DNA of 63,653 bases, filler included. It is 19 parts of 19 records of this genome, joined end to end, with 100 filler letters (N's around TTAATTAATTAA, not from the genome) between each part and the next. Parts side by side here need not be neighbours in the genome. Positions count along the whole stretch, not along the records: positions 23,869 to 30,865 come from SRR9188676_1703; 18 more parts are not named here. One strand, given 5' to 3'. The notes under the pieces were generated by a model that saw only the letters and a list, made by a program, of their open reading frames with translations, made no database searches and had not been told where the DNA came from. How positions within the stretch are numbered: position 1 is the stretch's first letter; every line of letters begins with the position of its first letter. Position numbers and translations under genes: made by a program. This document shows positions 12,883 through 46,145 of this stretch, piece after piece.

Positions 12883-12909
12883 GAGAGAGAGGGAGAGAGA
12901 GAGAGAGAG
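12883..12909. repeat. (GA)n microsatellite at contig end
   Basis: Similar (GA)n tracts lie at contig ends at 33862-33883, 36429-36454 and ~61494-61527, and probably caused the assembly breaks. Confidence 0.85.
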
Positions 12910-13271
12910 GAAAGGTGAAGAGGGGAGGCGAGAAGACGCGCGTCAGTTTCTGGTCCGATCATCATTCGGAGAGAGCTTGATTCCTCCCTAGCCTGACCAA
13001 GTAGTACCTTGCGACCTAAAGTCCGTTTTCTGGATCAAGGGAAGGTTTGGATCTCGAAAAGTACCGTCCTCATGTCGAAGCGGGTTTTTTTTTCGCTACC
13101 TTAATAATCGACTAGATGATCGATGCATTATTTCGATTTTCAGAAATCAAACACTCCGAGTCAGAGTAACAACGGTTGAAGTGTGGCAGTCATGGAGGTG
13201 TTAAAAATAAAAAAATAAAAAGATACATGAGATGTTCCATTATTGTCAGCGATATGGGATGCGGGACGTAC

Positions 13272-15734
13272 TTGGGGAGTGATGGGGGCAGGGATGCAAG
13301 TTTGAAGCCGGGGAGAGGCGCACGCCCATCGAAGCACATACGGCCGTCATGGCGCTCGGGACTCGCCTCACGCATCCTGACAAGTTGGGGGAACGAGTGA
13401 GCAGCGTGTTAGTGCTAGGGATGAAAAGAGCAGTATATGCCACGAATTGAGAGTAATAGTAGGGGAGAGCCGAATGTACACCAATGAAAAAGAGCCAACT
13501 AGTTGAGGATATGTTCCACGTATGTGGACGAAATTGCTAAAATTGAGTCGCCCTAATGTCAAGCTGATCGTTCCTTTCGAACAGTGCCTCTCGATCAGAC
13601 AGCTCAGAATCTCAAGAACAAATTGTGAGTTGACATACTTTGAGGGTTGATGTGCCATGCGGCCCGAGCGCTCGTCCCATGCAAACATGGTGGAGGCGCC
13701 GTCAAGGTTCGACGAGAAGATGTCTTCATCATCATCTTCAAAAGCACCCACGCCCCATGCTTCCTTCAGTCTGTCATATCAAACCATGTCGGAGCAAACA
13801 GCGACAAACGAGAGATCAGCAATAGGCAGCTCAGAATCAGAATTTCCAGATACTTGAGTCTAAGAGCAGAATAGTTAGTAACGACAAAGAACAGTAAGAA
13901 GTCACGCTGTCTTTGAGAAGGGAGCATCGAGGAACAAAATGGTCTTGTATCTCTCTGCATTCACGGAATTCTGTATTGTAGATAATTATCCACCCAAAAT
14001 ATCGAATAAAATCCCCAAAAATTCAAAATCTTCGGTTGTTGAATGTGTGCCTGGTTTAATTCGAAGAATAGGGACACTGTGTACGAGCGAAATTCATACC
14101 GTTTTGGTTCCAGCTTGCTTCGGTCCCGGTTCATGAACTCGGGTGCATCTCGATGTGGGTCATACCCAAGACCAAACCGGTCTTGCTTGTTCTGAAACAG
14201 TGCTCGAATTCGATCTTCTTCGAGGAGGTTCCTACAGATTCAGAAGAAAAGTCGAAAAAAAAAAAAAAAAGAATTAATCGAAGAACGAATCATAGCGCGG
14301 TTGAAATGGAAAGGGAATCATTTTTATGATCTCGAAGGAACTCGTGTACATCCTGATTCATAATCATCTTAGCATACCGACAGAAATTAAAAGTATAACT
14401 GAGATTCAGGGCATCATAGCCGTTGAAGATAACGTACTCGTCTTCAGGCAGGTCAGGCTCGGCCGGTGTAGTGGGTGCTGCACTCACATCCGGGGGCAGC
14501 TGGCACCCATACACTTTGCGTGCCTGTGGAAGAGGGAAAAAAATACAGCGAATGTGGGAAATGTAAGCAGGTGACAGAAAACTCCCGATTGGAAGAGATG
14601 GAAACGGGAGAAAGATTCTGTAAATTTCATTGGGAAGTAGTCATATTTTTAAGCACAGCAAAAGAAAGGCTGGTCATAATTTTGGGAAAGTACGGGATCC
14701 ACCTTCAGAGACGGAATCTTTAAAAGCTAAAGTTCATCAGAACTGTGCTTCGAAAAATAGGAGTTCGATCACTTTTCTCGTCGACTGAACCACTTGAAAC
14801 ACGGCAATATCACTTTCATAAATAAAATAAAATAATTACCAGAAACATTGGATAATCTATGTGACGAGTCGGGAGCCTATTTCAAGCTATACGTACGGGC
14901 TCTTCGGGGGCCTTTTGAGCCTTTTTAACTCGTACAGGAGCAATAGAGGCACCCTCCTTCCAACCCATCTTCTTCAGGAGTTGAGAGCCTGGAAGGACAT
15001 GAGATTTTTATCAGAGGAAGCACGGCTGAAGATCTCTTATATTTTAAAAAAGTTAAATGAATGATACAATACAAACGATATACAATGATCATATCAGAAT
15101 GCGATGACATAGAATGGGGAAGTCATACCTATGGATCCATCACCAGGTTGAATAATAGTATCCTTCACAAGAGACTCAAGGCCAGGAATCAGATTCTCAG
15201 GGGCCGGGATACCCATATCATCTTTCTTTCTTTTCTCATATTCTCCGCCATAACCAGCAGCTGTCGTCAACCCTTGGTCTTCAGTTAAGCCGAGATGCTG
15301 ATCAAATCGAGGAGTAAGGAAGTTGTTGGAACAAGAACAATAAAACGAACGTACCATGCGATCTTCCTCATCTAGGAAATCGTTGATTGTCTGTTCTTTT
15401 TTCCCAGCTCGCTGATCTCGAGTGGATTTGAAAGTGCTAGGTGCCCAACCTGGTTTGTGTCACGATGAGGAACTGCGAAATGAGACATTATGGAGCTGGA
15501 TTTACCTTCTTTTGACCCAACTGTATTGTAATAACCAGCAGAAAATCCACCTTGGAAGGCGCCATGCAGGCGCCTTCGCCCATTCTCATCTCGGACCTCT
15601 TGTTGCCATACAGGAACAAATTTTCCTTCTTCTATCGCCCGTTTGCGTGCTCCAGGCTTATCCTCATCGCTATCACTGTCGAATGGTGTGCCTAGAAGAG
15701 GCCGGAAGTCGAATTTTTCCTCCGTTTGCGTCAT
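13272..15734 (-). CDS. GPATCH1: G-patch domain protein 1 (GPATCH1/TOUGH-like), 5' part
   Basis: [46 protein letters not shown] (DUF1604), [14 protein letters not shown] (G-patch-like), [24 protein letters not shown] and DGRAPLPGF. Introns are about 56, 57, 140, 373, 206, 329 and 258 nt. Confidence 0.92.
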
Positions 15735-15825: not shown

Positions 15826-17262
15826 ATGACCGATTTCGTTTCCTTTTCCAAGCGCCCAGAGTGGGCTGATGTCAAGCCGATCCCTCAAGATGACGGTGAT
15901 CATCCTGTAAGAGATATTTCTTGATTTTTTTATTCAAAAAAAGCGACTCAACCTTGAGTTAGGTTGTGTCCATTGCCTACAGCGAGGAGTTCGTGGAAAC
16001 CATGGATTACTTCAGAGGTGAATCGTCGAGGAAATAGTTATATGAATGTATGCTCATGTTTTTTTACATACTTTCAGCGATCATTGCGACAAACGAAAAG
16101 AGCGACCGCGCGTTGCAACTGACGGAGGAAGTCATCGCCCTGAACCCCGCAAACTATACTGTGTGGCAATTTCGACGAGAGTTGCTCGGTTTGTATTTTG
16201 ATTTGTGTGACAATAATAATGATTACTGATTCTTGGGTGCGCAGAAGCTCTTGGGAAGAGCTGGGAAGATGAACTCAAATACGTCACCTTGTTGATTCAG
16301 GACAACCAGAAGAACTATCAGGTACTGCTATTATCCTTTTTAGTATATACTTTTATTCTTTATAAATCTATGTCTGTGCGGTGTGTCCTCAATTCCTTGT
16401 GGTTTTCAATCCCAGGTGTGGTACCATCGTCGCGTTGTGGTTGAGAAGTCTGGTCTTGTAAATCAGGAAAAGCCCTTCACTGCCAGCATATTGGAAGACG
16501 ATTCAAAGAATTACCATGCTTGGGCCCATCGACAGGTTTGACATATTCTATTTTGCAGAGAGCTTGTCTTTTTCAATTTGGCCTTCTAATCAACCGATTC
16601 TGTCTCACCTTCCAGTGGGTAATCCGCACTTACTCTCTCTGGGATGAAGAGTTGGAGTACATTGATGCCCTGCTCAATGATGTACGTCTTCCTCTGTTAT
16701 ATTCGTCAGCTTTCCTAGAACTTACATTTTTCTTGCTATTATTTTCAGGATGTGATGAACAACTCCGCTTGGAATCAACGATTCTTTGTAATTTCCAACC
16801 AAGAGATATCTCAAGACGTGTGCGATCGTGAAGTAAAATACAGTATGTCAGCTTTCACGTCGTGTGATTTCTTCGGCCAAATAGGACGAACAAGAAAAGA
16901 CTACTAACAGATTGTAGGTAACAGGAGCGACTTAATCGAAAGAAAGACGCGTATCGTGAATTACGAATTAGCAGACAGAATCGAAGCAATATTGAGTGTT
17001 ACCATCATCATCCTTTCTTCATTTCTTTGAATTTTAGCCCTGGATAAGATCAAGACTCGCGTGGACAACGAAAGTCCATGGAACTATCTGCGAGGTCTCC
17101 TGAAAGCCACACTCTACTCCTTCTCCTTCCGTAAGTTTGCATTCTGCATCAGCTTGTACTCGGTATCGGTGGATCTTATTATGGCTCGTTTGTGCAGCTG
17201 AATCGATTGCGTTTGCTGAGAAGCTTGTCCTGCAGCAGCCCAAGAGCACGTTCCCTCTCGCT
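15826..17262 (+). CDS. FNTA: Protein farnesyltransferase/GGTase-I alpha subunit, 3'-truncated (9 exons)
   Basis: [35 protein letters not shown]...[12 protein letters not shown]...KNYQ|VWYHRR...[13 protein letters not shown]...NNSAWNQR...[10 protein letters not shown], i.e. PPTA repeats. All introns are GT-AG and in phase. Confidence 0.96.
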
Positions 17263-19029
17263 GTGAGTACTTCCTCACTCTGTCCGGTGTTTCTGGATGA
17301 TCATTAGTTTTTGGTGGGGTCATGCTTTATTGTTGTTATGGTTCACCTAGAATTTTATAAGATGAAGTGTGGGGATCAGGCGCCAACCAATGAAATGTTC
17401 GAGAAAGAAGCATAACATGGTTCAATGATTATTTATATTTGACATAAACAATGGAGGTCCGGTATGCCGTCCNNNNNNNNNNNNNNNNNNNNNNNNNNNN
17501 NNNNNNNNNNNNNNNNTTAATTAATTAANNNNNNNNNNNNNNNNNNNNNNNNNNNNNNNNNNNNNNNNNNNNGCGGCACCTGGGAGGTCCTAGTCCACCA
17601 AGAGCAGGATAAAAGGTGGGATGACAGGCAAAGGAAAAAGCAAAAAATACACTACGACAAGATATGAAGTATGACGGTAGTGGCTCGAGAATTTAATTGT
17701 CGTTATAACGTGTAGAAAAAAGGGAGGTGACTCGGAATCGGAAGGTGTGAATAATTCACAGAATGTATTCAAAACTTTTTCAGCATCAGAAAACAAAAAA
17801 TAATAAAAATAAAAAAATAAAATGTAGGAACACATACATGTGGCAATAATTCGTCCGATGAGATTCCTGCAAAAGAAGGAGAGACAAACGGAAGCAATGA
17901 GAAAGAGACAACGCACAACTGCGAAGCTTTCTTTCTTCGACGTGCTGATAATGAATAACAGAAGAAAGCACTGACGCAAATAGAAGAAATATCAAGAAGA
18001 ATATCTTCTTCAGACGAAGGATCACAACAGCTTCTGCTTCCTGTGTGCATGGAAAAGAAAAACTCATTCTAAAGCCGTGATGAAAAAGTCAGAACGCCTG
18101 AATATAAAAGTGGAGATCTGTCAACACTCACTCCATACTAGAGGATGAAGAAGCTCTCAGATACAAAATGGAAGAGGGAAGTAACGCAAACAGAAGAATG
18201 AGAATAATAAAATTTGATAATTGATTCCTCTTCATGCTCAGGAAGGATGGTGAAAGTTTTTCGAAGATTCTATCAGATTCGTTTGTTTGTATATATAAAT
18301 GACACACAAGTATCCCGTGAAAAAGGAGCAAATACGAACGGATTCAAGGGAAATAGTCAGAGATGATGTATGAACCGGCTCAGAACAAGCTCTCACAATC
18401 CTCAAGCCGAAGATAGACAAGAAAAAACTCAAGGAAGTCTAACCTTCTACGCTCGTCAATCCGAGGAAGGCGATCGCCAGGAAAATCAGTAAAGTGACCA
18501 ACTTATTCATCTTTCAACGCAATCCGATGAATACAAAAAGAAGATTTTCGCAGCGAAGAGTGCAATGTAACCAGAAAGAAAGGTGGTCCTTAAGTATAGG
18601 ATAGAATAGCAAAGAACAATGTCGTTGGAGGATTCCTGAAATCGTAAGATCGAAATTGGGAACTCGACAGGCAGGATTCTCTTCGCTGCCACTGAATACC
18701 TAACGGATTTGCGTCAGGCCAGAGCCGCCAGGGGGGGTAGGATTTTCTGCTGCTCGGCACAGGTTTTGTTACAAGGGGGGGATAGATCATGTATACGAGA
18801 TATTTTCTCCAAATCCGAGAATCCGAGCTATCCGCTGCTATCCGACTCCCACCGTCCCACCAGCCTCACTCGTGTAGAATCATTGGATCTATGATGACGT
18901 CACATAGAATGCTCCGGTGCTTCAATTCTATTACCAGATTTTCGAATCTACTTCAGATCCAAGTCAAGATCCTTGCACTCTGTTGGATGAAAGACGTATG
19001 CATTCGAACCGGAAGCCACCCTTCTTTAT

Positions 19030-23687: not shown

Positions 23688-24121
23688 TTGAAGACGCCTC
23701 AAAAGAAGGCGGGAAGACGGGGTGTTTATTCGGATTTATTACGGGGATCGCTTCGCCCCAAGGGGCGANNNNNNNNNNNNNNNNNNNNNNNNNNNNNNNN
23801 NNNNNNNNNNNNTTAATTAATTAANNNNNNNNNNNNNNNNNNNNNNNNNNNNNNNNNNNNNNNNNNNNCTTTATTGTTTAATAAATGTCGCGGTACTATC
23901 TTCAAATGCAAGTGAGAATTTCCTAATTTGATTAGGAGATTTTCTTGAAGAAATAGGCCTCGGACCCCCCTGCATTTCGAGAGGAGGCTTTATGGCGTAG
24001 CTTCTAATCTCATCCGTGTTTTATTTTATTTTCGGTCTCGGGATTTTCACGAACTGACGACTGAGAAATGTTTCTAATTCAACTCTTCTGCATTGCATTT
24101 GCTCTTGTGCTTTCGCTATAG

Positions 24122-25839: not shown

Positions 25840-28800
25840 ATGGAGAGAAGCTCTCATTTGATTCTTATCAAAGTCTATCGAGTAGATACAGGAGCTTGTT
25901 ATCTGCTAAATTATCTGCAAAGTGATGACTCGTAAGTCACTTTTTACTCGGTTTCATCACACGGATCACTCCACACTTGATATTTTGCTCGGCATCTCTT
26001 GGATATAAGAAATCTTTCTATGGCCTCTAACATTTCTGTATGCTATGATTCTTCTATTAGAATTCTCAAACTTCAAGACCTTTTAAGTCAGCAATGTGGA
26101 ATTCCACCCGCATTCCAGATTTTACTCTTGGAATTTACTCATCTTGACCCAAGTAAAACAATAGCACACTATGGTCTCCATGTTCAGGTTGGGATTTCTT
26201 TTCTTCTGTTCATCCATTGATTCTCTGGGATGCTGATACTTCGTGTGAATAATCAATTGCAGACTGAGAACAAGGCGATATATGTCTTTGACAAGCGTAT
26301 GCTGGTTAGCGCAGCAATCTCACCAGCTAAAACACAAATTGAACCTATTTCGGTGAACATCCCGCTCGAGGCTACCTTAGAACTACCCCCAATTCCAGCC
26401 TCCTTAGAACAATTTCCGATGGTGGCTGCCCTCGTTCAGGCTCTTGGCACTTTTGTGAGAAATTTTGACCACCATTTGAATCAAATCACTATTATTACGA
26501 ACGCTTCATGTGCCAGATTAACAAATATGGACAAATGCATCTTACAACAGAGCAATATGGTGCGCGGCATTCGTGCTGCGGAAATGAACTTAAATTCTTA
26601 CAATACAAAGCAAAGCAATATCATGCGGGACTTTCTTATTCACTTTCAAGAACAAAGTGTCAAACAAACTTCACTTTTGCATTCGGCTGAAAGTGATTTG
26701 GAACGATTGAAGTCCGTCCGAATTGACAGTAAGCCATTTATCATATGTGATTTGACAGTTCTGAACCGATGAAGTTCTGAAAACTGACAGTATTGATGAT
26801 CGTCATTCTTCGTAACTCCCTTGGTCTCTCTCGAGCAATTGAATAGAGTCATTTTCCTATTCTTTGCTTTTGGGGGAGGAACTATCTCTGATTCCCCCAA
26901 TCCCTTACATGCAAGCATTTTGATTATTCTTTAACAGGATCCATTGCTGAGAGTCTTGGTATTGAAGGAAACAGCCTGTACCATGCGGTACCTGTTGACT
27001 CGTTACGCAGATGGGCCACCGACCTGCGCTTGAAACAGGACGCGGTATGTACGCAAATAAAAAAAGTATGAACAATAAATGGGTCACCATGCTTCAAACC
27101 TTCCACCTCGGTTTTTGAACGACGGTGATCCAGATATAATTCAGAATTTCATTCTCATGAGTAAACCTATTCTCATAAATAAGATTGATTTTTTATTTGT
27201 CGCAATCTAACGCTGGGTTTAATCCCAATATTACGTTGAACAATACTCGCACGCCCGTGAGAATAGGTCTCTCACGACTAGTTTTGCGACTCGGTCATGG
27301 TTTTCGTCATCATCTGATCTGAAGATTATTATTTTTTGCTCTTTGTGAGTTTTGGCATATTGTTTTCTCGTGGCTGTTCATCGCTCTTGCATCTTCTCGA
27401 TTTATCTCACTCATGATCTTTTGTTTGGTCTGGATATGATTGTGATTCCGGGCTGTGTCCTTCTTGCAGCTTCGAAACAAGATCAAAGATGTTGAAACGA
27501 GGTTTCAAGATATTCAAACAGCAGTTAATCAAGAAGTTGATACGACCCTGTTATTCCCTGAGGCCGACTTGCGGGCCACTCTCGGAACTTGTCAAGAAAT
27601 GTGCAAAAAATTTGAAACCCTCCGAGATGAGGTAAGAATGAATTCTACATGGGTAATTTACGAGCTTGTTTAGTTATGGTCAGAAAAAGGCTGTTATCAT
27701 TTCGTGTATGTTTTGTTTCCTATCGCTGCTCACCACAAACTATATTGCTTTTTTTTTTCCGCTTAAATCCTGTGCTACTTGCATCCTCTCACGTGCAACA
27801 ACTTCTGCTCTAATTCTGCAGTTCGAGTTGGACCTTCAGTCTGCCCAGAAAAAGCGAACCGATGTCTTGGCCTGGGAAACTCTTGCCTCCTCCGCGTATG
27901 TACACTCCTCGATTTATCGTCACTTTCTACTAGCTTTCTCCAAGGGGAAAACGGCAGCAAAACTCCTCTGAATCGATGTCCGCTAGTTCACTCTCTCAGT
28001 ACATGTTCTCAATTTACATGACCGCTTGCACTCGATCCTGGTTCTTTATTTTCCTCTCGGTTTTCGTCATCAGACGGAGTAAATGTTTATCTCTTCCTAA
28101 TTGATTTCCAGCTTCAACCATGTTACCCAACGCATCGAAATTTCGCTGATATTTTGGAATTGTTCCAAAAATCTGAGACGCGACACCTCTCTGCAGCTCA
28201 TTCTTTACAACTTTTGGACTGTTCCATCTACCAAGAAAAGGAAGTCTTTCGAGAAAGTTCGCGGCTAGAATAGGGTACTGGACGCGAATTTTTTGCACTT
28301 TTGTTGCCATCAACCAGCAAGGCACAGAGCCCATGAAGCATATCTCATGATGTCGCGTGGGCTCTCCGGTCTCAGGTGCAAACTATCACGAAATATGATT
28401 CTTATTTTTTCCCCTTTGACTGGCCAGGTCAAGGATTTGCCCGGATTGGGCCAGCTGCAACGAATTCGATATCAAACTACAGGAACATAAGGTACTTGTT
28501 TTTCTATCATTTCGTTGTATGATCCGACCAAAATTATCAGATCAGAAGCCTGCGCTTTGAGAAAGCGAGTGGATTTTGATTCTGTGTCTTTTTCGGGAGA
28601 CTCGCCAGATTGTGCCCTTTTCTCCCTTCAATGATTCGCCGGCTGAATTTCTTTAATTCTTCCTGCCACCGAGCGGACACGATTTTCTCCCGTTGTCATG
28701 TTTCTGATTTCACTCTCATGTCTCTAATGCTCGTCGGGTTCAGGAAAAGGTGCAAAGGATGCTGGAGACGCATCAGGAATTCGAGTCTGGCATGCACAAG

Positions 28801-30411
28801 ATCGAGCAGTCCAAGGTATGGGCTTCTCTCGACCGTCCCAGATTCTACCCGACCATATTATACCATAGCACACCACACCGAACCAAATGCATTCGAGGGA
28901 CTAGTTGAGCCTGGTGTACACACAAAGGAGACTTGAATGCCATTCAGTCCCAAGCCGACTTTTCCGCGTTTCTTTGGCTAATTTCAAGAAAGCAAAACAG
29001 AGTATGGGGCGCGCGCCCCTTTGCTGCGCCACTATTCCAGGGATTTTTCGCATCGTTCTTTTTCATTTTCTACTCTCTAAGGTTGATTTTATTGTATATT
29101 ATATCTGATCATTATAAAAGATTGCCAGAGTTGAGATCATTCTTGAATTCTCGTCTGGGGGTTGCCCCCTCTGCGCCTCAGTCGTTCAAAAGCTGTTTCC
29201 TAAAGACCACACATCCGATGCTCAATCGCTGTCATCCCCCGCTATTCCTCACAACCACCTTGCAGGATGACCTTGCGCGTGCGATTTTCTCACGGCTGCG
29301 CAGAGTGTCTGAACTTCAGGGAGCCATCTTCCAGCTCAGCAGCAAGCTCAGAGGGTATAAGCAAGCCCTGGACAGCCTGCAGCAAGATTTTCTGAACCTC
29401 GTCTATGTCAAGCGTAAGTCCCTTGCTGACAATTTGAAGATTGGAATGCGATCAGCCATTGACTGTTGATGCGCTTGAGAATGACAGAAGGCGACCCGTG
29501 ACCTTAGCGTGTGGTTGTCAAGCACAGTCTATTTTGCTGATCTCGTTATCTGGCCTGTGTGTGGATTTTTTGTTTTTACACTGTATTATTTCTTTTCACT
29601 TCTACTCCTTCATTTTTCTTTTATTTCGTAGCCTGGCCCAGACCCACAGTAGTTATTATTGTTGAAAAATAACTTGTAATGACGATGCTGGCCTGATTGA
29701 TGTGCTTTGATTGGCTTTGATTCTTCAGGATTGCCTGATGCATACGAAAAGCTCTTCCTCCGTGAAATCGCGAGGAGACAGCAGTTTGGGCAGTCCTATC
29801 GCCACGTGGCCTCAGCCTTTGCCGCCAAGATGCTGAAGGTATGTGTGTATCTGCCCGCTTGGATCGGATAGGATCATGGATAATATGAGGAAGGAACTAG
29901 CACCTCCAGTCAACCTTCTGGTTTTCGTACACGGTCCAATCTGAATTCGTTCATTTCGTAGAGAGTAAAACGGAGAATGCAGGCTAAGAGCTGTGCAAGT
30001 CCAGAGGGTTCGATTGGTCTCTCACCCCAAACCCCTTGTTTGACGATCGATGTGTACGTGAGAACCACTCCGAGTCAAGTCTGCTCCTGAGTCCGTCTCA
30101 CAGATTTACTCGAACTCGATCCTGATTTCGAGTCTCGAATATATTGCCTCGCCAGTTCCTCGAGAATGGTCTTCTCCGACCGTGCCTAATTCCCTCTCTT
30201 TTCTCTCCTTTCTGTCCTTCCCCGGGTTGCGCTGTCTACTTGTTCTCTCCGAATCTCCTTCCTCTACTCTAGCTGCGAGATACGGAAGAGGAGCGTCGGC
30301 GCCAGGTTTGGAAGGACATCGTCACATTCTGCCAGCTCCCGGAATGCTTCAGGAAATTGCTGTCCACCACTGTGCCCAAGTGCGAGGTCACCTTGCCCCT
30401 TTTTGATACCC
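25840..30411 (+). CDS. ATG11: Autophagy scaffold ATG11/RB1CC1(FIP200)-like, 5' part (11 exons)
   Basis: N-terminal ubiquitin-like region (KVYRVDTG...GIPPAFQILLL...LDPSKTIAHYGL...IYVFDK), SDLERLKSV, and LPDAYEKLFLREIARRQQF...EEERRRQ...CEVTLPLFDT resemble plant and protist ATG11. Confidence 0.8.
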
Positions 30412-30965
30412 GTACGTCTTTGCTTTTTCTCTCTCTTTCAGGGAGAATCTTCCTGTCACGTTAACCCTTTTCTTTTCTTCCTTGGACTTCAACATTTCGT
30501 CCTGGGAACGATTGGTAGATATCCAACTAAATTACTTGCAACACTCCTGTCGGCAAGAGTCTTTGGAAGTTTGTTGCGAGTTGCTCATGTCAAAATGCAA
30601 CCATCTCACCTCTCTGACTGCATTCTAGTTCCGTTACAGAACAACTCTTATTGATCCGAAAGTCACGTCTCCTGAGGGCCATCCCTGATCCCTATGCCCT
30701 ATCCAGAACTCTGAGTCGAAAGTGGAATTTTAGACGAGTTTTATTCCTTTCCTTGTTCTTTTTGCCTCCACTTTGATAGCGAAAAATAGAGAGATAAGTA
30801 AGGATCACAGTCAGCTTGTTGAAAAAAATAGTAACCAAGCTGCCATCAGGTCGAAGACCGGATTGNNNNNNNNNNNNNNNNNNNNNNNNNNNNNNNNNNN
30901 NNNNNNNNNTTAATTAATTAANNNNNNNNNNNNNNNNNNNNNNNNNNNNNNNNNNNNNNNNNNNN

Positions 30966-32530: not shown

Positions 32531-34155
32531 TTTCACCGCACTGGGAAAAAAAGAAAACAGCGGGCAATATATGCAAAACAAAAGTGTGTCAAATACGATA
32601 TTCTCGAAATCCAGAATCAAATCAAAGTGCAGAAACGAGCGGGAAACTGATGCTTTTTAACAGAGAGGGAGGGTAAAATGAGCTGGTTCTATTCTCGAAA
32701 ATAATTATATTACCCTCCTGCCCAAGAGAAAAAATCGAACTGTCACTCCGAGCTCAACTCCGAGATCACCTTCATACAACAAGTTCTATATCAGAAGAAA
32801 AAAATATCAGAAACTCCAGAGATCACATTCTGATGAAAGGAAGATCAAATTGAAGAAATGTAACCTTCGCATGCATGATGCAGAAGATCGCAAGTTTACA
32901 GTGGTTTGGCTGAAGAGTATTTTCGGGAACCTGATAATTCAACTTTTCCAGCTAATCAATTTATAACAAGTAAATGCTCTTCAAATCTGATTCTTCTATC
33001 GAATCTCCCTTCATGAAATACATGACAGATGCAGATGCCGCAAGATTGTCAATGCTCCTCAAGAACCATGAGACGGCCAAGACCAGAAGTTAGAGAGAAT
33101 ACAAAAAGTAGTGTAATTTCTAGTCCTGAAGGTAAGAGAAAAGTTTCAATGTTTTCTTTCGTCATTGCCCATCATCTGTGGAAGCGACCATTTTTCCATC
33201 TAGAAAAAAAATGAATAAAATGTTTTCACTGACTCTATGCTAATTCAAAAATAAACCGAATATATCAATTGTGAGTTGTGAGGATACATACTGGAATTGA
33301 TTTGTGTTGCTGTCCAGGATATGGGACGAGGCGATACGGCTCTTGAGGTTGTCGATCTGACTGAACGACTGTCCGCTAGACCGCGAGCGCACTTCATTGT
33401 CATCTGCAGATGATGAATAGTGCAGGATCAAGTGAGTAAAATTGAAAATGATCCGCTGCACTGATTTGGCTGGTTGTGGAGTGAAGTAGGATGATAGCTG
33501 GGGTCTGGGATTTGATGGTCAAGTTGGGCCGAAGATTTGATTTGATATGATATAATTACGGTGCATGTGATAGGATGGAGCTTGTGAGTGTGGTATTCGT
33601 ATTTATGTGTGAAATTACTACAGGTTGCCGACATAGTGCTGAACGATCAAGGTGGGTGGGGTGGGGTGCGGGTCAAGTTCCTGTCATGTGAGAGGATGGG
33701 AATGTGGTGCTGCTGCCAGCTCATGTGATGTGATTTCATTTGAAACGATCCATGGTTATTTNNNNNNNNNNNNNNNNNNNNNNNNNNNNNNNNNNNNNNN
33801 NNNNNTTAATTAATTAANNNNNNNNNNNNNNNNNNNNNNNNNNNNNNNNNNNNNNNNNNNNAGATAGATAGAGAGAGAGAGAGAAAAAAAAAAATAAGTT
33901 CACAAATTCCCAAAATCATCGGATAAATAAAATGAGGATAGCAGGTCCGAAAGTAGTCATCAGATATGAATATAAATCGAAGCAGTGATGTGTTCAACAA
34001 ATAAATTTGGTAGCAAATGACGAGAATAGAGTCACAATAAAAATACCCGAAACTGACCCGTGTTGGAAGGAAAGAGATTCTAACAGGTTCGAAAGAAAGA
34101 GTTGGCACGGAAACACAACATACGAATCACAACGGAGCCAAAGAGAGATCCATAC

Positions 34156-36259
34156 CTGTCTGCGAATCCAAGTGTCACTACCCAGCCAGTCCCCGGACCC
34201 AGCTACTCCCTATACCACAGGCACACAGTCACGTCAGAACAGAGCATAAAAAAGAGACGTAAGGAAACGAGGAGATCGAAAAGACAGAGAGGAACACGAA
34301 AAAAAATCTAGCGCTGGAAATACAAAAGTATATTGCAAAAGGGAATGCGAGAAAGAGAGAAGAAAACCCGTTAGAGAGATATAGACGCTCTTAATTCCCA
34401 GAACGAAAAGGATCCAGGTAGATCGAAATGCGTCTGAGAAAGAGAGTTGTAGAAGGGAAGTGGGTCAAGTGACCGAATAAGAATAATCGATAGATAGACG
34501 GACGGGGGGAAGAGAGAAAAAGACAGACAGGGGGAAAAAAATCAGGGTAAATACATACATGTGCATCCCATTCCAGATTCTCCTCGTCCTCGAGTGAATG
34601 CCTGCTCGCCGTTTCGGTTTCCTGAATGAGCCGTTCCATGAAGCGTGTCTCTGAGCGGGATAGAGCCGAAAGGCTGCGCAGTGCAGCGGGTGTGGTAACC
34701 CCTCGGCGGTCGGCGGACTGCAGAAACGACACGGAGCCGTCCTCGGCATTCACCAGGACCTCTGGCCGTGCACCGGGCTCGTCTCCAACACATTTTTTGC
34801 GAGAGAAAAATAACCCCGCCATGCGGCTTGTCCCAAGAAGAAATCTAAGACGGAACAACAATACACACACAAAAGAGGGAGGAAGGAAAGTGAGTCAAAG
34901 AAAGATAGACAGAACGAAAGAAAGGGAAGAGCTAGATTGAAAACCACGAATAGTCTTCTCACAAACATTTTGATATACATCATGAAAAATCATGTACTCG
35001 CAATGTGCTCGAATTTGTATCCTGATGCCGAAGTCTTCCTGATGCATCGTGGGACAAGAGGTAAATAGATAGACAGATAGAAGAGATTGTACAGGTGCAA
35101 ACAAGATACATCAGAACAGATCAAATGAGGCAGAGAAACGCATCGACAGCGATAAAATTAAAAAAATGACGAATTTGAGGGCGGGTGATTTTGCCCTTTT
35201 TAGAGACAAAATTGGAGAGATATCAGATAAGTGTCTGACTGATGTATATTTCCGAATGAGGTCTTCAGTTTTCAAGAACTTTGGGATAATTTCTTATCCT
35301 TGAGAGATGAAGAAGATAGGAAGAGGAAAACATAGAGGACTCCGTAATTGATCTCGCTACACCTACCCAGGAAGTTGTTCGGCCACAGGCATGGTTTGCA
35401 GCTCTTGCATACTAATATACGGTCTCATTTTGGCACGGCCTTGTCCCGAGATGTCAAACGGCCGGAGAGGTAAACCAAAATCATGCAGGGTGTAAGAAGG
35501 GTCGGATTGTGCCACGCGTTGCTGAGCGTGCGTGTCGGCCTCTAATGTGCCGGGTAGTAACGAGACAAGAGTAAGTACAGTAGAGCACACTGTATGGATA
35601 GGAAGTCCGTAGATCAGGATGCGACGTTCAAGAAGCAATAATTTCAAGAGTGCGAGCACATTGGCTCCAAATCTGCGAATAAGAATTCGAGGAGAGAGTC
35701 CCACATGGTATTCTGAAAGATCACGAAAACGATTCACTTTTTGTGCTGAGGAAAACATGGCATTCAATGAATGGAAAAGAGAGACAAGCATTTCGCGTTC
35801 TCCAAAGTCAGCTTCCTCGAAATACATCTTCACCACAGGCCGAAGACGCGCGAGGAGCCCCCCATAATAAGGTACATGAGAAATAATGCAAATGCTCTTT
35901 TGAACTCGATTTCTAGTCATATCGGCTGTCCGGGACTTCACGTCTGTGACGGCCACCTGTCGAAAACTAGCCACGCAATGGTAGACTGACCCTGGGTCAG
36001 ATTTGTCGAGGGATGGAAGCTGAAAAAACACTGCATCTTCATCGTATCCATGAACGCCATCAGGCATGGCTAAAAAGGGAAGGAATTCCCATCTCTTGGG
36101 CAGAATTATATGGTCATGCTCATCCTTGGACATTCCAGACCAAGGGTTAATGACCCATTCAAGGACATGTCCCAGTTCATGGTGAAATCCAACGATAACG
36201 ATATGAGCAATGGGCTGAGGACCCCAATCTGTGATGTCCTTTTCAGAGCCGAGACTCAT
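34156..36259 (-). CDS. AVL9: Late secretory pathway protein AVL9 (DENN-like), 5' part
   Basis: IVGFHHELG...LPFLAMPDGVH...FRQ...DMTRNRVQKSICII...LLLLERRILIYG, then G|FLLGTS and WLGSDTWIRRQ. Introns at 35366-34845 (522 nt) and 34558-34210 (349 nt). Confidence 0.92.
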
Positions 36260-36860: not shown

Positions 36861-38510
36861 CTGCTTATTCATCTCTGCGATCTGTGCCGTGACCTCGCGC
36901 ACTTGGTCCTCTTTCTCCTTCAAAACTTGTTCCAAGTGCTGCATACTGCGCTTTGCCTCTTCAGCATTCATACCCACGCCCGCAATCTGATGTTGAGCAG
37001 TGGGATTTTGGGAGTTCTGCTGCCGTGAAACAGGCCCAGATGTTGTATTATTGTCTGGCTTGGGGCCAGTGCCGTGTTGAGTTTCAAGAGTGTGATTCAG
37101 CGTGTTCAGTTCGTGAATTTTTTCGCTGGAGGATAACAGTGGAGAGAGGATAAGGAGGGAGAGAGAGAATCTGGTATAAATATCGGTCATTGAGCATGCA
37201 TTGCCTTGCCGCTGGAATGGATGGTTTTTCCGAAGAGGAGGCAAATTGGGGAGAACATGGGATTGGTATGTAGAGAGATGGGAAGAGATATGATCCTCCA
37301 GAAGGATCCTTTCTTGTATGTGGGATCAGATATATGAAATATATATCCTGATTGGTTGTCGGTGATTGGGGCCGCGAACCTTAAAACATCTTGTGACGAA
37401 GGAGGAATTTCGACACGTCGATGTTGTGCATCTGTTCTTTATTGTTCGAATTGTTGTTCAGAGTGAGGAATGGTCTCTAGGTGGCGTCTAATTGCACTTA
37501 TTTCTGACCAGGAATCAAAAGTTCTGACACAAACCAAAGCTGTGTGGTATCTTATCATGCGCTGAGACACGCTTTTGATAATTCACCGTGAGAATGTCAG
37601 ACGAGGAAGCTTGCTCTCAGTAATATTGTTGACATTACCCGTTCTGGCTCAGGTAGAAATCAAGGTAGAAGGGCCGACTTCGGGAAAGTCGAAAATAATC
37701 AATCAATAACCATCTTAAAAAATAAATTCAATAGTTGTATCTCGAAAGCAGCAAGACTGTGCTTACCCGATCTGGCTCTGCAGTTGATCGATCGTAGCCT
37801 TATGCTTTGCAGCCGTAACCGCCAGTTCTCTGATCTTGGCTTCATCTTTTTGACGCAAGATATTCCAGATCTTTACTACGGTGCGATCGATTTCCATCAT
37901 CTGCCCTTTGAAGGTCATGAGATGCTCCAACCGCTGTAACTCATCGATGCTCAGAGTGCGGTTGGAATTGTCTTTGGCTACACAAAAGAGAGAAAGAAGT
38001 AATTCAGTGTATATTTAGAGAGCCTGATGCTCCAATATGAGCATGATACTGTCATTGGGGCACATGATAAGAGATAATATCCTCGAGTGATCGGACAATT
38101 CCACTCAGCCGTAGCTTTGGGATATTTGTCGACATTCTCAATGCAAGGGTGATAAAACATGCAATATTCAGTTCATCGATATGATACAGCGTACCTTGCT
38201 GGAGACCTTTGCCTAACACCACTCTCCGAACGAGATCAGGCTGAGGATAATTTGGGGGTGCCGGTCCTGCGTCATCCATAGAGGATGGCTGTTTCTTGAG
38301 GACATCAGGAAGGCGAGGAGATTTGAGCAATCGCGTGGACAGAGAAGCTTTGGATTGCTTCAATTCGCTGAGATTCTATGTTGTTTAGTCAAAAATGAGA
38401 TGATGATCTTCGGCTGTTTTTCAAAGAGAGGACTTCACCTTGAATGGAACAGGTGCGGGATCAAATTGGCTTGATATTACACCGGAAATGTCTTTGCTGT
38501 TGTCGGCCAT
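36861..38510 (-). CDS. Coiled-coil hypothetical protein, 5' part
   Basis: ATG at 38510 (MADNSKDISG...). Exons include LSIDELQRLEHLMTFKGQMMEIDR...KATIDQLQSQ and EAKRSMQHLEQVLKEKEDQVREVTAQIAEMNKQ. Confidence 0.55.
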
Positions 38511-38735: not shown

Positions 38736-39800
38736 ATGAAAGTCCGAATATTTCCCCTCATTTTCCTTCTATGTTTTCACATGACAACAATATGTTCGAG
38801 TCAGAATGATCGACTCCGCTACAATGATTGGAGATCGGTCATGACTGAGGTTGATATGTTACAACGAGCTTGTGATTATGCTGCCGCTGGTTTGTGTGAT
38901 TCACTTGAACAATTTCGTTATTGAACTGAATAAATGTGCTTAGATGGACATTATGCAAAGTCTGAACTGCGAAACGAAACTCTTGCTTATATACATGCCA
39001 TGCGGGCTGTTGAAATGAACTGTATGTACCAGTGCGAGAATCTCGAAGTAATTGGGAACATTTTTACTGGTGATCCCAAACTTGTCTGTATGTATATGCC
39101 TAGCTTCACTTCACTGTTTGCTTTTAATTAATGTTGAAAACTCGTAGACGCTCTTCCTGCCCTGGCCAGAGCTATGCCAAGCTGTCGGAATTATTACCCA
39201 CTTTATGTTATGTATGCTCTCATATTTCAATACCTGGGCTTTCCAAGCGAGGAAGTTCATTGGATTATGGCTGCGGCTACCCCACTGGATCCTGAAGCAG
39301 TCAATGAACAGTATTACTCCCAGGTCGAGATTGAAATGCCCAAGGTGAGCGAGCAGGAGACCGGAGTTTGTGATTAAACCAACCTCGCAAAAGACATTGC
39401 AGATTCCTCATGATACTCTATTGCACTGTACTTGCCGCATTTTACTTAACTGTGAAGAGTTTTGTCCCTTTTCGATGATGATCTGTATTGATCACGGACC
39501 ATCGAGATGCGTACTCTGACCCTCAGGATATTTTATCAGTGAATTCGCTCGGTTTTCCGAATTTCAAGCTTGAATATAGCGCCTTGCCTCAATCGTGACT
39601 GATATATTTAACTTGATCAGCAACCATCTGCAGACCGGGAGGCGTACTTCACACTTGTGAATGATGAGAACTTTGTGGAGGGTGCGCTGGCGCTGGGGTG
39701 CTCGCTGCGGAAGGCAAAGGTCACTCGCCCTTACATCGCTCTCATTACTGATGACATCTCACATGAGGCTCGAGACAGCATGAAAAGGATGGGTTGGCAG
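38736..39800 (+). CDS. GT8-family (glycogenin/PGSIP/IPUT1-like) glycosyltransferase with signal peptide, 5' part
   Basis: Signal peptide MKVRIFPLIFLLCFHMTTICSS. Exon 4 reads EAYFTLVNDENFVEGALALGCSLRKAKVTRPYIALITDDIS...GW, the GT8 N-terminal motif. Introns are 54, 60 and 276 nt. Confidence 0.8.
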
Positions 39801-40603: not shown

Positions 40604-41432
40604 GAATGCTGGTAGAGCAACACGACAACATACACGTCACCACAGTTCACTTCATCCTTGTAGTCTGTGGCACGAATATGGGTCAAACCGCCATAACGCG
40701 CCTTGGCTGCCTTCTCCTTCATTTCGCGTATCCTTTGCTGGCTGGGAGGGACGGAGGGAGAAGGAGGGAAGGAGGGAGAAAGAGGGAGAAAGAACGAGAT
40801 AAATAGAGTGAGAGAGATGGATAAAGATAAATCATTTATCCAGAGCAAAGGCAACATAAAATATCGAAGTCAAAAGTCCAAAATCAAAACATTTCTTTCC
40901 CGTCTCAACAATTTCGAACGAGGAACATTTTTCCACATTCTTCTGTTATGATTGATACGAGAAGAAAGCTGATGCAAGTTCGGTCTAAGAGGACAATAGA
41001 AACCGCTATGTGTGTTCCGTGCAAGGTTCAAGATGAAGCGGATCGGGATCGGGTCTGAAAGCTTGATAGTCTTGATAATTATAGTAGTTTGAGAGAGAAA
41101 CGAACCGATAAGCCTCAAGCTCCTTCTCATCATCGCTGCCAAGGTCATCATCCATCATGTCATTCAATTGATCCAAACTCTTGTTCTTCAGAGGGTCATA
41201 GTTCTGAGCAGCTATAAATATTCAGCCATCGATTAGCATTCTGCGAAATGAAATTATTAATTCGAAATACCTTGTTCGGCAAGCTCTGCAATAGTATCTT
41301 GAGAGATCTCGACCTCCTTGGGGGGCTGAATACAGCGGAAGGTCAGCATTTCTACACTTATGAGAGAGAAGGGCATATTACCAAGTTGCCCATGCGACGC
41401 TGGATCGTCTCCCATTCAGTTTCACCCGACAT
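40604..41432 (-). CDS. PDCL3: Phosducin-like protein (PDCL2/PDCL3/Plp2), 5' part
   Basis: MSGETEWETIQRRMGNL|PPKE...LDQLNDMMDDDLGSDDEKELEAYR|QQRIREMKE...YGGLTHIRATDYKDEV...VVVLLY. Introns are 56, 59 and 364 nt. Confidence 0.9.
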
Positions 41433-41596: not shown

Positions 41597-42711
41597 ATGG
41601 CCAAAACGAAGGAAATCGAGATTCCTTCAACTCGATTCGAGTCAGAAATCTATGATGAGGAGATAGGAGAAGAGATCCCTCTTTTGAGCCCAACCTCAAC
41701 GAATATTCGTGTTTTACCGCCGGTCGATCGGTACGGCGCTCGAAAGGACGATGTATTTTCATCTTTCTCACGTTGAGACTTCACCAGGGCTTTCCTCAAT
41801 GCGAGAAGGAAGCTCCTTATCTCATGTGTACTGTGCTCGATCTTCATGGTTGCCGAAATTATTGGAGGTTATCTCGCCGGGTCTCTCGCTATTATGACAG
41901 ACGCTGCTCACCTTCTTTCTGACCTTGCCTCCTTTGTGATCTCCTTGATCGCGTTAAGGTATGATCGGATATTCATTTCTGCACTTCTTTCTCGTCGCTC
42001 ATCTTTCAATGTTTCAGTGTTGCCCAGCTACCTGCCTCGCATAAGCTCTCTTATGGCTATGTGCGTGCCGAAGTTATTGGTGCACTGTTTTCTATTTTTA
42101 TTGTGTGGGTTTTGACTGGTAAGTAATTTCAACTTCTTCGAAAATCCCTGACCCCTGACACTCATTCTGCTCCTCACAATTCGAGTCGGGGAGAATCAAT
42201 CAATTTCCAGAATACTCGTGGCTCCTTATCATCCCGAGAGTAGATTTGTATCTTGATATGTTCATCTAGACAGGTTCTCGACTCCGATCCTTTAGCTATG
42301 CTTGGATAGAGATCAGAGTCGCTATATTTCCCTTTCAAACCACTTGTTTTTGTTTCTCTATCTCTTTATTTCACTGTGTGTTTCTCACTCCCCCATCCCC
42401 CACTTCCCAACACACACACAGCCTCATTCCTCATGTCTGTCTTTTCTCTTTTCCTCTCAGGTATTCTTGTGTATGAGGCTGTCCACCGAGTGCAGCATCC
42501 CGTCCCAGTGAATGGCAAACTGATGTTCATCATCGCCTCTGCTGGCTTGGGTATCAACATCCTGATGGGGCTAGTACTTGGCCACGGCCATAGCCATGGT
42601 CCTGGCGGTCACATCCATGAGGAGGAAGAGGAAGATCATACCAGCAAGAAGGAAAAGAAGAATAAACGTAGCGGGAAGCATGGCCACTCACATGGTTCCA
42701 AGCAGCATAAG
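41597..42711 (+). CDS. CDF-family zinc transporter (ZnT/SLC30, MTP-like), 5' part
   Basis: ARRKL...FMVAEIIGGYLAGSLAIMTDAAHLLSDL (HxxxD), SYGYVRAEVIGALFS and a His-rich loop GHGHSHGPGGHIH. Introns are 57, 59 and 342 nt. Confidence 0.93.
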
Positions 42712-43202: not shown

Positions 43203-44166
<964 letters not shown>

Positions 44167-46143: not shown

Positions 46144-46145
46144 CG

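What the first reader, a model, noticed from the sequence alone, without database searches (positions are those of the whole stretch)
25840..30865. Intron length rises with distance from the gene start, in about ten genes across the window (inverse of the usual long first intron)
Hand-mapped introns in 5'->3' order (nt): ATG11 129,75,209,425,190,532,252,450,315,434; DUF1295 70,55,68,203,546,>420; SMC3 51,60,60,75,73,>330; PDCL 56,59,364,>460; ZnT 57,59,342; GT8 54,60,276,>240; TRIP12 56,67,252; GPATCH1 56,57,140,373,206,329,258; NT-C2 59,58,64,85,250,411; FNTA 56,60,56,94,80,67,195,67,>210. Introns near the ATG are minimal and then switch to about 200-550 nt, at roughly 0.3-1 kb in most of these genes. 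AVL9's first intron lies ~900 nt into the gene and is 522 nt, so distance matters rather than intron rank. Mid-gene fragments (EML 537 nt, transposase 486 nt) are also long. In many studied eukaryotes first introns are the longest. Inference: a promoter-proximal zone resists intron expansion, for example through a chromatin or DNA-modification domain, deletion-biased repair, or co-transcriptional splicing constraints. It would also explain why so many contigs centre on promoters and break in gene bodies.
Basis: partly seen in the sequence, partly recalled or inferred. Interest (0 to 1): 0.72.

Follow-up and report, generated by a model that had tools for sequence, protein, structure and literature searches.

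The report
Short early introns, long later introns
In this little-known eukaryote, introns close to a gene's start are tiny (about 55-75 bases) and those further in are several times longer. This is the reverse of the usual rule, has a precedent in blood flukes, and its cause is still unknown.

Summary
The window is 19 short contigs (one bacterial). All ten hand-mapped gene models exist as open GT-AG chains. A position-neutral gene finder trained without the tested contig recovers 19 of 23 long and 16 of 30 short introns exactly. Homology shows no missed exons in the long introns that could be tested.

In 15 genes with an assignable ATG (64 complete introns), intron length rises with distance from the ATG (Spearman 0.70). 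None of 10,000 within-gene shuffles reaches this. Distance predicts length; intron rank adds nothing. The switch lies about 0.4 kb into the CDS, or 0.6 kb of genomic sequence.

The rule has exceptions. Two unlisted genes (PX-domain, coiled-coil) begin with 182- and 217-nt introns. ATG11 begins with 129 nt. FNTA stays short.

The mechanism is not shown. CpG content shows no boundary, and long introns share no repeats, transposon remnants or known RNAs. Long introns carry the same sense-strand pyrimidine skew as short ones, which fits slow growth in place. Start regions are compact overall: four divergent gene pairs have ATGs only 91-164 nt apart. The closest precedent is Schistosoma mansoni. 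I judge this a new member of a known but rare kind, of moderate interest. A whole genome and RNA data are needed.

The parts
25840..30411 (+). ATG11/FIP200-like gene, the focal gene. Exons: 25840-25931, 26061-26187, 26263-26728, 26938-27044, 27470-27631, 27822-27895, 28428-28491, 28744-28815, 29266-29413, 29729-29838, 30273-30411. Introns: 129, 75, 209, 425, 190, 532, 252, 450, 315, 434 nt, then a donor and more than 454 nt to the contig end.
   Evidence: Chain rebuilt; the finder reproduces introns 3-10. 21 distant relatives were found; 7 of 7 scanned carry ATG17_like with ATG11 and/or ubiquitin domains. They align collinearly. Exons 3/4, 9/10 and 10/11 abut in the relatives' coordinates. The 110-125 residues between exons 4 and 9 match the 124 aa of exons 5-8. 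Exons 6-8 individually are weakly supported.
25932..26262 (+). Start-proximal zone of the focal gene, holding its two shortest introns (129 and 75 nt).
   Evidence: Exon 3 aligns to residues about 64-225 of the relatives, which supports two upstream exons and the called ATG.
26729..30272 (+). Distal zone of the focal gene: eight introns of 190-532 nt.
239..1274 (-). TRIP12-like gene, 5' part. Introns 56, 67, 252 nt.
   Evidence: Exon 4 matches TPR_TRIP12_N positions 98-160 of 223, E 4.7e-8.
1835..2622 (+). PX-domain gene, head-to-head with TRIP12. This is a counter-example: CDS introns of 182 and 243 nt from 36 nt after the ATG, and a probable upstream intron 1618-1830 (213 nt).
   Evidence: Weak PX hit, E 0.006. 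Splice sites at percentiles 0.90-0.99.
12883..15734 (-). GPATCH1-like gene. Introns 56, 57, 140, 373, 206, 329, 262, 242 nt.
   Evidence: DUF1604 profile 2-38 then 40-69 across the first intron. 120 relatives align collinearly, and none covers the 373-, 206- or 329-nt introns. Intron 7 corrected.
15826..17307 (+). FNTA-like gene. Its ATG lies 91 nt from the GPATCH1 ATG. Introns 56, 60, 56, 94, 80, 67, 195, 67 nt, so mostly short throughout.
   Evidence: PPTA repeats in 5 of 6 exons scanned. Exons 7 and 8 match farnesyltransferase alpha residues 230-262 and 265-285 across the 195-nt intron.
34140..36259 (-). AVL9-like gene. An 893-nt first exon, then introns of 522 and 349 nt.
   Evidence: Avl9 clusters. 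The closest relative, P0121, aligns q8-279, q293-392 and q402-416 to the three exons.
36861..38279 (-). Coiled-coil gene, divergent from GT8. This is a counter-example: first intron of 217 nt at 85 nt from the ATG, then 641 nt.
   Evidence: Splice sites at percentiles 0.98-0.99. No family assigned.
38841..39800 (+). GT8-like gene. Introns 54, 60, 276 nt, then more than 242 nt.
   Evidence: No Pfam hit for exon 4 on its own.
40604..41432 (-). Phosducin-like gene. Introns 56, 59, 364 nt, then more than 461 nt.
   Evidence: The identity is only weakly supported: PDCL3 chain 7nvm_P, E 1.7.
41597..42711 (+). Zinc-transporter (Cation_efflux) gene. Its ATG lies 164 nt from the PDCL ATG. Introns 57, 59, 342 nt.
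   Evidence: Cation_efflux profile 1-48, 51-81 and 85-131 on exons 2-4.
43203..44166 (-). SMC3-like gene. Introns 51, 60, 60, 75, 73 nt, then more than 333 nt.
   Evidence: SMC_N profile 1-29, 44-89 and 93-134 on exons 1, 3 and 4.
44296..45960 (+). Its ATG lies 129 nt from the SMC3 ATG. Introns 59, 58, 64, 85, 250, 411 nt.
   Evidence: No Pfam hit on the single exons tested.
49477..51140 (+). Introns 70, 55, 68, 203, 546 nt, then more than 423 nt.
   Evidence: Only a weak ERG4_ERG24 hit on exon 6.
57000..57746 (+). Introns 62, 67, 78 nt, then a donor and more than 419 nt to the contig end. It is divergent from a minus-strand gene whose ATG at 56869 lies 130 nt away.
   Evidence: C2 hit, E 6.7e-4.
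61668..63128 (-). EML-like gene fragment with a 537-nt intron.
   Evidence: HELP plus Beta-prop_EML 1-101, then 112-186 across the intron.

Best explanation
Intron length in this genome depends on position in the gene.

Within roughly the first 0.4 kb of coding sequence (about 0.6 kb of genomic sequence) after the start codon, introns are held near the minimal spliceable size of 51-75 nt. Further downstream the same genes carry introns of about 200-550 nt. Both classes use the same splice signals (G|GTANGT ... YAG).

Shown here: the pattern itself, that it depends on distance rather than intron rank, and that the tested long introns are genuine.

Inferred: all non-coding DNA around the promoter is kept compact, and distal introns are free to lengthen. 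The same start regions also have very short divergent spacers, with ATG-to-ATG distances of 91-164 nt in four gene pairs. The cause would be selection against insertions, or a deletion bias, in the promoter-proximal chromatin domain. The lengthening looks like slow growth in place rather than insertion of mobile elements. The rule is a strong tendency, not absolute.
For: Trend:
- rho 0.70-0.78; 0 of 5000 and 0 of 10000 within-gene shuffles reach it.
- Kendall tau is positive in 10 of 10 listed genes.
- The first intron is shorter than the last complete intron in 13 of 14 genes.
- Distance, not rank, carries the signal. AVL9's first intron lies 893 nt in and is 522 nt long.

Models are sound:
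- N-termini are anchored by homology: SMC_N profile position 1; a plant GPATCH1 relative aligning from its residue 1 at the called ATG; AVL9 from q8; ATG11 exon 3 at residues about 64-225 of its relatives.
- Long introns shown free of missed exons: ZnT 342 nt; GPATCH1 373, 206 and 329 nt; ATG11 209, 315 and 434 nt individually, and 425, 190, 532, 252 and 450 nt collectively by residue count; FNTA 195 nt; AVL9 522 nt; EML 537 nt.
- Held-out splice-site scores and the held-out gene finder agree with the models.

Compact start regions: divergent ATG spacers of 91, 129, 130 and 164 nt.

Growth in place:
- Cores of long introns keep the sense-strand skew. T exceeds A in 21 of 23 and C exceeds G in 20 of 23, as in short introns.
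- Among the 53 introns there are only 4 non-self matches to any contig, all 31 nt or shorter.
- No Rfam family is found.
- The ten longest intronic ORFs have no Pfam match.
Against: - The sample is only 63 kb, 15 genes and 64 introns. No RNA evidence and no whole genome were available, so 5'-UTR introns and short first exons cannot be seen.
- Three of the 13 first introns lying within 230 nt of the ATG are not minimal (129, 182 and 217 nt).
- FNTA keeps short introns for 1.4 kb.
- True 3' ends of multi-exon genes are hardly sampled, so 'long to the end' is not shown.
- CpG observed/expected and GC show no boundary along genes. No sequence trace of a modification domain supports the inferred cause.
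Confidence: 0.6

Rival explanations
1. Ascertainment artefact. Without RNA data, only compact 5' ends can be recognised. Genes whose short first exon is followed by a long intron are called 'mid-gene fragments' or are missed, so short first introns are over-represented.
For: When I searched for unlisted genes, two of the five with an assignable ATG began with long introns. The PX gene probably also has a 213-nt intron upstream of its ATG. Contigs 2, 9 and 16 hold only long or mixed predicted introns, with no recognisable start and no Pfam support.
Against: The trend holds within genes whose N-termini are fixed by homology: SMC3, GPATCH1, AVL9, ATG11. It also survives adding the counter-examples (0 of 10000 shuffles). 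Missed first exons cannot explain why introns 2-4 are short and introns 5 and later are long in the same gene.
Confidence: 0.15
2. Sample or gene-class effect. The pattern belongs to a subset of genes, such as housekeeping genes in tightly packed divergent pairs, that happen to fill these short contigs. It is not a genome-wide rule.
For: Seven of 18 eukaryotic contigs hold a divergent pair. The four pairs with spacers of 91-164 nt all have minimal early introns. In each of the two pairs with spacers of about 560 nt, one member begins with long introns. The window is a tiny, possibly non-random part of a fragmented assembly.
Against: ATG11 and AVL9 are not in recognised divergent pairs and still show long distal introns. 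All 10 listed genes trend the same way.
Confidence: 0.15
3. Age or insertion model. Long introns are newer, or were lengthened by mobile-element or introner-like insertions that land preferentially away from the 5' end.
For: Long introns are closer to the contig-wide GC than short ones: 0.41 against 0.37, with the contigs at 0.44.
Against: There is no sequence similarity among long introns or to other contigs. No tandem or Rfam features explain them. The ten longest intronic ORFs have no Pfam match. A consistent sense-strand pyrimidine skew in 21 of 23 cores is not expected for recent insertions in random orientation. A 63-kb sample cannot exclude low-copy families.
Confidence: 0.07
4. The long introns hide unrecognised exons, so the true introns are all about 60 nt.
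For: A naive search finds that 17 of 21 long introns could formally be tiled by GT-AG introns of 100 nt or less plus open segments. That test ignores site quality and the downstream frame, so it is uninformative.
Against: Profile or homologue coordinates abut across every long intron that could be tested. The gene finder, which is free to add exons, adds none in 19 of 23.
Confidence: 0.03

Closest known systems
Schistosoma mansoni gene architecture (small 5' introns, large 3' introns)
   Same: Small introns are concentrated at the 5' end of many genes. Protasio et al. [quoted passage not shown] They note that excluding the first four exons greatly improved exon-boundary prediction. I recall, but could not read, that the 2009 genome paper states 5' introns are smaller than 3' ones.
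   Different: A different lineage. The proteins here have no close flatworm relatives: the best GPATCH1 hits are fungi and plants, and the best AVL9 hit is a protist entry. Here the minimal size is about 51-75 nt and long introns are only 0.2-0.6 kb. Dependence on distance rather than rank is shown here; I did not see it stated for S. mansoni.
The usual eukaryotic pattern: longest first intron, length falling with ordinal position
   Same: Intron length depends on position in the gene.
   Different: The sign is opposite. Bradnam & Korf 2008 (PMC2518113, passages) find the first CDS intron about 40% longer than later ones in most species. Zhu et al. 2009 (PMC2636830, passages) find a negative correlation in all 13 genomes studied. 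Theileria shows the same (PMC2612703, passages). Here the first intron is shorter than the last complete one in 13 of 14 genes.
C. elegans operon genes (short first introns)
   Same: Bradnam & Korf name these as the exception: first introns in operons are shorter than average.
   Different: The genes here lie in divergent pairs with their own start regions, not in same-strand operons. No trans-splicing evidence was sought.

Membership tests
5'-small / 3'-large intron polarity (S. mansoni type) | Minimal-size introns are concentrated in the first exons of many genes. | tested here: met
   17 of 20 introns within 300 nt of the ATG are under 100 nt. 10 of the 13 first introns lying within 230 nt of the ATG are 70 nt or less.
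5'-small / 3'-large intron polarity (S. mansoni type) | Introns further 3' are systematically larger. | tested here: met
   1 of 8 introns at 1-2 kb and 0 of 7 beyond 2 kb are short. rho is 0.70, and 0 of 10000 shuffles reach it. True 3' ends are mostly off the contigs.
5'-small / 3'-large intron polarity (S. mansoni type) | The property holds genome-wide. | not testable with these tools
   No genome is held, no RNA run is listed, and no related locus was found.
Usual long-first-intron architecture | The first CDS intron is on average the longest. | tested here: not met
   The first intron is shorter than the last complete intron in 13 of 14 genes. Kendall tau is positive in 10 of 10 listed genes.
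Introner or transposon-derived introns | The introns share sequence or terminal repeats with one another or with other copies. | tested here: not met
   There are only 4 non-self matches, all 31 nt or shorter, for 53 introns against all contigs. The ten longest intronic ORFs have no Pfam match. The sample is small.
ATG11/FIP200 family (focal gene) | An N-terminal ubiquitin-like domain followed by an ATG17-like domain. | tested here: inconclusive
   Single exons score weakly: ubiquitin E 0.11; ATG17_like positions 301-333 of 355, E 0.07. However, 21 relatives were found with exon 3. 7 of 7 scanned carry ATG17_like (E down to 3e-33), 5 of 7 carry ubiquitin, and they align collinearly.
ATG11/FIP200 family (focal gene) | A C-terminal ATG11 domain. 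| not testable with these tools
   The contig ends inside the gene, with a donor at 30412 and then 454 nt of intron.

The most novel reading that the evidence does not exclude
This deep-branching protist may have a sharply bounded compaction domain of about 0.5 kb on each side of its promoters, many of which are bidirectional. Inside it, every kind of non-coding DNA (divergent spacers and introns) is pinned at minimal size. Outside it, introns drift to 4-10 times that length. This would be a chromatin- or repair-defined mutational boundary that arose independently of the similar polarity in schistosomes. It would make the cause of positional intron-length bias testable in a unicellular system.
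Probability: 0.3. Interest if true: 0.65.

Novelty: new member of a known kind. Interest (0 to 1): 0.5.

Why it matters
Longer first introns are described as a general property of eukaryotic genes and are usually explained by regulatory content near the promoter. A second, unrelated lineage with the opposite polarity shows that the rule is not universal. Here the polarity depends on distance and comes together with very short divergent promoters. Whatever sets intron length can therefore act as a promoter-proximal constraint on all non-coding DNA.

There is also a practical side. Gene finders and RNA-seq assemblers tuned to one intron-length class will mis-annotate the 5' ends of such genes, as was reported for S. 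mansoni. Fragmented assemblies of this organism will over-represent gene starts.

Tried and rejected
- RNA evidence: the look-up of sequencing runs listed no RNA holder, so read laying could not be used.
- Whole genome: none is held.
- ATG11 exon 3 against the word-indexed protein collection ('longer'): no hit. The exhaustive HMMER search then gave 21 distant relatives.
- The search for related loci with AVL9 exon 1 in metagenome contigs: 107 pattern matches, none confirmed.
- Berriman et al. 2009 could not be read by PMC id or DOI.
- Literature searches for other reports of the inverse polarity and for introns in Rhodelphis found nothing relevant beyond Protasio 2012. Supplements were not consulted.
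- The naive tiling test of long introns by short GT-AG introns was too permissive to inform.
- CpG observed/expected and GC along genes: no boundary.
- Rfam: 0 families. tRNA scan: 0 genes.
- No Pfam family was found at the thresholds used (E up to 1, or 5 for ATG11 and 0.01 for AVL9 exon 2) for single exons of several genes: PDCL exons 3-4; DUF1295 exons 3-4, with only chance-level hits to unrelated families on exons 5 and 6; GT8 exon 4; NT-C2 exons 3-4; ATG11 exons 3 and 5-8; the candidates for TRIP12 exon 5; and the predicted genes on contigs 3, 9 and 16.
- The PDB sequence search leaves the PDCL 364-nt intron untested: exon 3 has no PDCL hit, and exon 4 hits PDCL3 at E 1.7.
- My first self-trained gene finder mis-modelled many 5' ends by favouring 'open intron' starts. 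It was replaced.
- I first mistyped by one base the ATG of the PX gene and the first-intron borders of the coiled-coil gene. This was corrected.

Full report
WHAT THE WINDOW IS

The 63,653 bases are 19 contigs of 2.0-7.0 kb joined by 100-nt N/stop-codon spacers. Eighteen are eukaryotic, at about 44% GC. Contig 14 (46115-48473) has about 30% GC and intronless MarR, OsmC and APH genes, so it is bacterial.

Several resources were not available:
- No whole genome is held.

Everything below therefore rests on the sequence, on homology and on my own scripts.

A solution exists for all ten genes on the expected contig. The per-exon translations look like real proteins.

The 53 complete introns share a clear consensus:
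- Donor: A at +3 in 42 of 53, G at +5 in 42 of 53, T at +6 in 30 of 53.
- Acceptor: C or T at -3 in 52 of 53.
- The consensus is the same in the 30 short (<100 nt) and the 23 long introns.

Reading through would give a stop or a frameshift in 29 of 30 short introns. 22 of 23 long introns hold in-frame stops.

A NON-CIRCULAR CHECK

I wrote a small dynamic-programming gene finder. Its intron-length prior is flat from 40 to 2000 nt, so it has no positional preference. I trained its splice-site and codon tables without any gene from the contig being tested. The results were:
- Long introns: donors and acceptors rank at median percentiles 0.975 and 0.947 among all GT and AG sites on their contig strand. 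Both sites are in the top 10% for 17 of 23.
- Short introns: median percentiles 0.966 and 0.907.
- The finder recovers 19 of 23 long and 16 of 30 short introns at exact coordinates.

One reader intron fails this check. A donor 4 nt upstream gives a 262-nt intron with both sites at 0.96. It is followed by an exon that relatives match, and then by a 242-nt intron.

ARE THE LONG INTRONS HIDING EXONS?

Wherever homology could be applied, the exons flanking a long intron abut in the coordinates of a profile or a relative.
- ZnT: Cation_efflux profile 1-48, 51-81 and 85-131 across the 59- and 342-nt introns.
- GPATCH1: DUF1604 profile 2-38 then 40-69 across the first intron. 120 full-length relatives align collinearly. 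Regions covered by at least 3 alignments fall only in called exons, and none falls in the 373-, 206- or 329-nt introns.
- FNTA: exons 7 and 8 match farnesyltransferase alpha residues 230-262 and 265-285 across the 195-nt intron.
- AVL9: the closest relative aligns q8-279, q293-392 and q402-416 to three exons separated by 522 and 349 nt.
- EML: Beta-prop_EML profile 1-101 (plus 11 residues), then 112-186 across the 537-nt intron.
- SMC3: exons tile SMC_N from profile position 1.

For the focal gene, an exhaustive HMMER search with exon 3 found 21 distant relatives. Seven of seven scanned are ATG11/FIP200-type: all carry ATG17_like, together with ATG11 and/or ubiquitin domains. They align collinearly to contig 8:
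- Exons 3/4 (209-nt intron), 9/10 (315 nt) and 10/11 (434 nt) abut. One relative, for example, runs q24-208, 208-235, 362-409, 410-445 and 445-487.
- The 110-125 residues that relatives have between exons 4 and 9 match the 124 aa encoded by exons 5-8.
- Exon 3 aligns to residues about 64-225 of the relatives, which supports the called ATG and the two short upstream exons.
- Of the 7 weak alignments (E<1) outside called exons, 5 lie in an unrelated upstream ORF. One lies in intron 8 (E 0.57) and one lies downstream of exon 11 (E 0.09).

These rest on splice-site quality and the gene finder alone. Exons 6-8 of ATG11 are individually weak.

STATISTICS

- Spearman of length against genomic distance from the ATG is 0.78, against CDS distance 0.78, and against rank 0.74.
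- None of 5000 within-gene permutations reaches the observed value for any of the three.
- Kendall tau is positive in 10 of 10 genes.

To avoid cherry-picking I annotated the other contigs and added every further gene with an assignable ATG. These are a PX-domain gene, a coiled-coil gene, a C2-domain gene, AVL9 and the minus-strand gene on contig 17.

Final set, 15 genes and 64 introns (33 short, 31 long):
- rho is 0.70 for CDS distance, 0.71 for genomic distance and 0.55 for rank.
- 0 of 10000 permutations reach the observed value.
- Short fraction by genomic distance: 17 of 20 at 0-300 nt, 10 of 17 at 300-600, 5 of 12 at 600-1000, 1 of 8 at 1-2 kb, 0 of 7 beyond 2 kb.

Distance against rank (n=62):
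- Partial correlations are 0.49-0.56 for distance given rank, and -0.09 to -0.25 for rank given distance.
- The logistic midpoint is about 420 nt of CDS, or about 630 nt of genomic sequence.

I left truncated introns out of every test. A contig break is more likely to fall in a long intron, and a truncated intron is by construction the last one, so including them would bias towards the trend.

EXCEPTIONS AND BIAS

The rule is not absolute.
- The PX gene (ATG 1835, divergent from TRIP12) has CDS introns of 182 and 243 nt starting 36 nt after its ATG. It probably has a 213-nt intron just upstream of the ATG as well.
- The coiled-coil gene (ATG 38279, divergent from GT8) starts with 217 and 641 nt.
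- All of these have splice sites at percentile 0.90 or higher.
- ATG11's first intron is 129 nt.
- FNTA stays at 94 nt or less, apart from one 195-nt intron.

This illustrates a real ascertainment risk: from sequence alone, a short first exon followed by a long intron is hard to see. The trend nevertheless survives adding them, and it holds inside genes whose N-termini are fixed by homology. Ascertainment therefore cannot be the whole story.

Predicted genes on contigs 2, 3, 9 and 16 have no Pfam support and I did not use them. A possible 71-nt fourth intron in TRIP12 could not be verified.

WHAT THE LONG INTRONS ARE MADE OF, AND THE SURROUNDINGS

- Long introns share no sequence with each other or with other contigs. 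There are 4 chance-level matches of 31 nt or less.
- They hold no Rfam family.
- The ten longest ORFs inside them, on either strand, have no Pfam match.
- Their cores keep the sense-strand pyrimidine skew seen in short introns. T exceeds A in 21 of 23 and C exceeds G in 20 of 23. This argues for long residence or growth in place, not recent insertions in random orientation.
- GC is 0.37 in short and 0.41 in long introns.
- CpG observed/expected is 0.7-1.0 at all distances, with no step. Nothing in the sequence points to a methylation boundary.
- Start regions are compact overall. Four divergent pairs have ATG-to-ATG spacers of 91, 129, 130 and 164 nt, and two more have about 560 nt.
- 7-8 of 36 eukaryotic contig ends lie in (GA)n, (GGT)n or homopolymer tracts, against about 5% expected. 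The assembly breaks at simple repeats, several of them in distal introns. This helps explain why contigs are centred on gene starts.

ORGANISM

The GPATCH1 exon finds fungi and plants at 55-70% identity, with no close relative. The AVL9 exon finds one stand-out hit at 52% identity, the EukProt entry 'Rmarinus'. The next hits are animals at 40% or less. I read that label from recall as Rhodelphis marinus. The source is thus probably a poorly sampled protist near that lineage. This is a lead, not a finding.

COMPARISON WITH WHAT IS KNOWN

The usual pattern is the opposite.
- First CDS introns are about 40% longer than later ones in most species (Bradnam & Korf 2008, passages read).
[quoted passage not shown] 2009, passages).
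- Theileria shows the same (passages).

[quoted passage not shown] 2012, passages). The 2009 genome paper that it cites could not be opened. C. elegans operon genes are a partial exception. Seven further full-text searches found no other report, and a search on Rhodelphis found nothing on its introns.

VERDICT

It follows distance, and it has exceptions. The mechanism is not shown. My preferred reading is a promoter-proximal zone in which all non-coding DNA is kept minimal, while distal introns lengthen slowly in place. That reading is an inference. It is a new member of a rare known kind, of moderate interest, and needs a complete genome and transcript data.

Noticed in passing
46115-48473 (contig 14): Bacterial-looking contig inside a eukaryotic assembly. 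It has about 30% GC and intronless ORFs for a MarR/SarA-type regulator, an OsmC-like protein and an APH-family phosphotransferase, plus a 35-nt inverted repeat near its start. Probably a contaminant, prey or symbiont.
   Followed up: partly
15735-15825; 44167-44295; 41433-41596; 56870-56999: Four head-to-head gene pairs have start codons only 91-164 nt apart: GPATCH1/FNTA, SMC3/NT-C2, PDCL/ZnT and the contig-17 pair. Two more pairs have about 560 nt (TRIP12/PX, coiled-coil/GT8). Seven of 18 eukaryotic contigs hold a divergent pair, counting a less certain one on contig 15.
   Followed up: partly
contig ends, e.g. 12883-12925, 33862-33900, 36429-36454, 61491-61527, 61628-61670, 63630-63653: Contigs often end in (GA)n or (AG)n tracts, or in poly-A or poly-G runs. 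7-8 of 36 ends fall below the 5th percentile of dinucleotide entropy. On the sense strand of the genes concerned, several of these are (CT)n tracts in distal introns.
   Followed up: partly
21438-23735 (-): A 766-codon open frame with weak Plavaka and tnp2 transposase similarity (E 7e-5 and 2e-3) and a C2H2 zinc-finger-like N-terminus. The finder places a 486-nt intron downstream of it.
   Followed up: partly
58453-60618 (-): A 722-codon low-complexity open frame rich in P, S, T, N and FG-like motifs, with no Pfam family. The short in-frame 'introns' that my finder predicted inside it are probably artefacts.
   Followed up: no
24058-25119 (+): A 354-codon open frame ending 718 nt upstream of the ATG11 start. 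It has no convincing family (a kinase C-terminal hit at E 0.02). It attracts weak alignments from the coiled-coil parts of ATG11 relatives.
   Followed up: no
48721-49120 (-): Three small exons joined by 65- and 56-nt introns with strong splice sites, ending in a stop. They lie upstream of DUF1295 and divergent from it. The first exon and the ATG were not found.
   Followed up: partly
1618-1830 (+): A probable intron just upstream of the PX gene's ATG, with a GTATGT donor and a strong acceptor (percentiles 0.98 and 0.99). It would be a long (213-nt) 5'-UTR or first intron.
   Followed up: partly
whole window: Introns show strong transcription-strand asymmetry (sense strand rich in T and C). 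As a result, the sign of the AT and GC skew in 1-kb windows tracks gene orientation along the contigs.
   Followed up: partly
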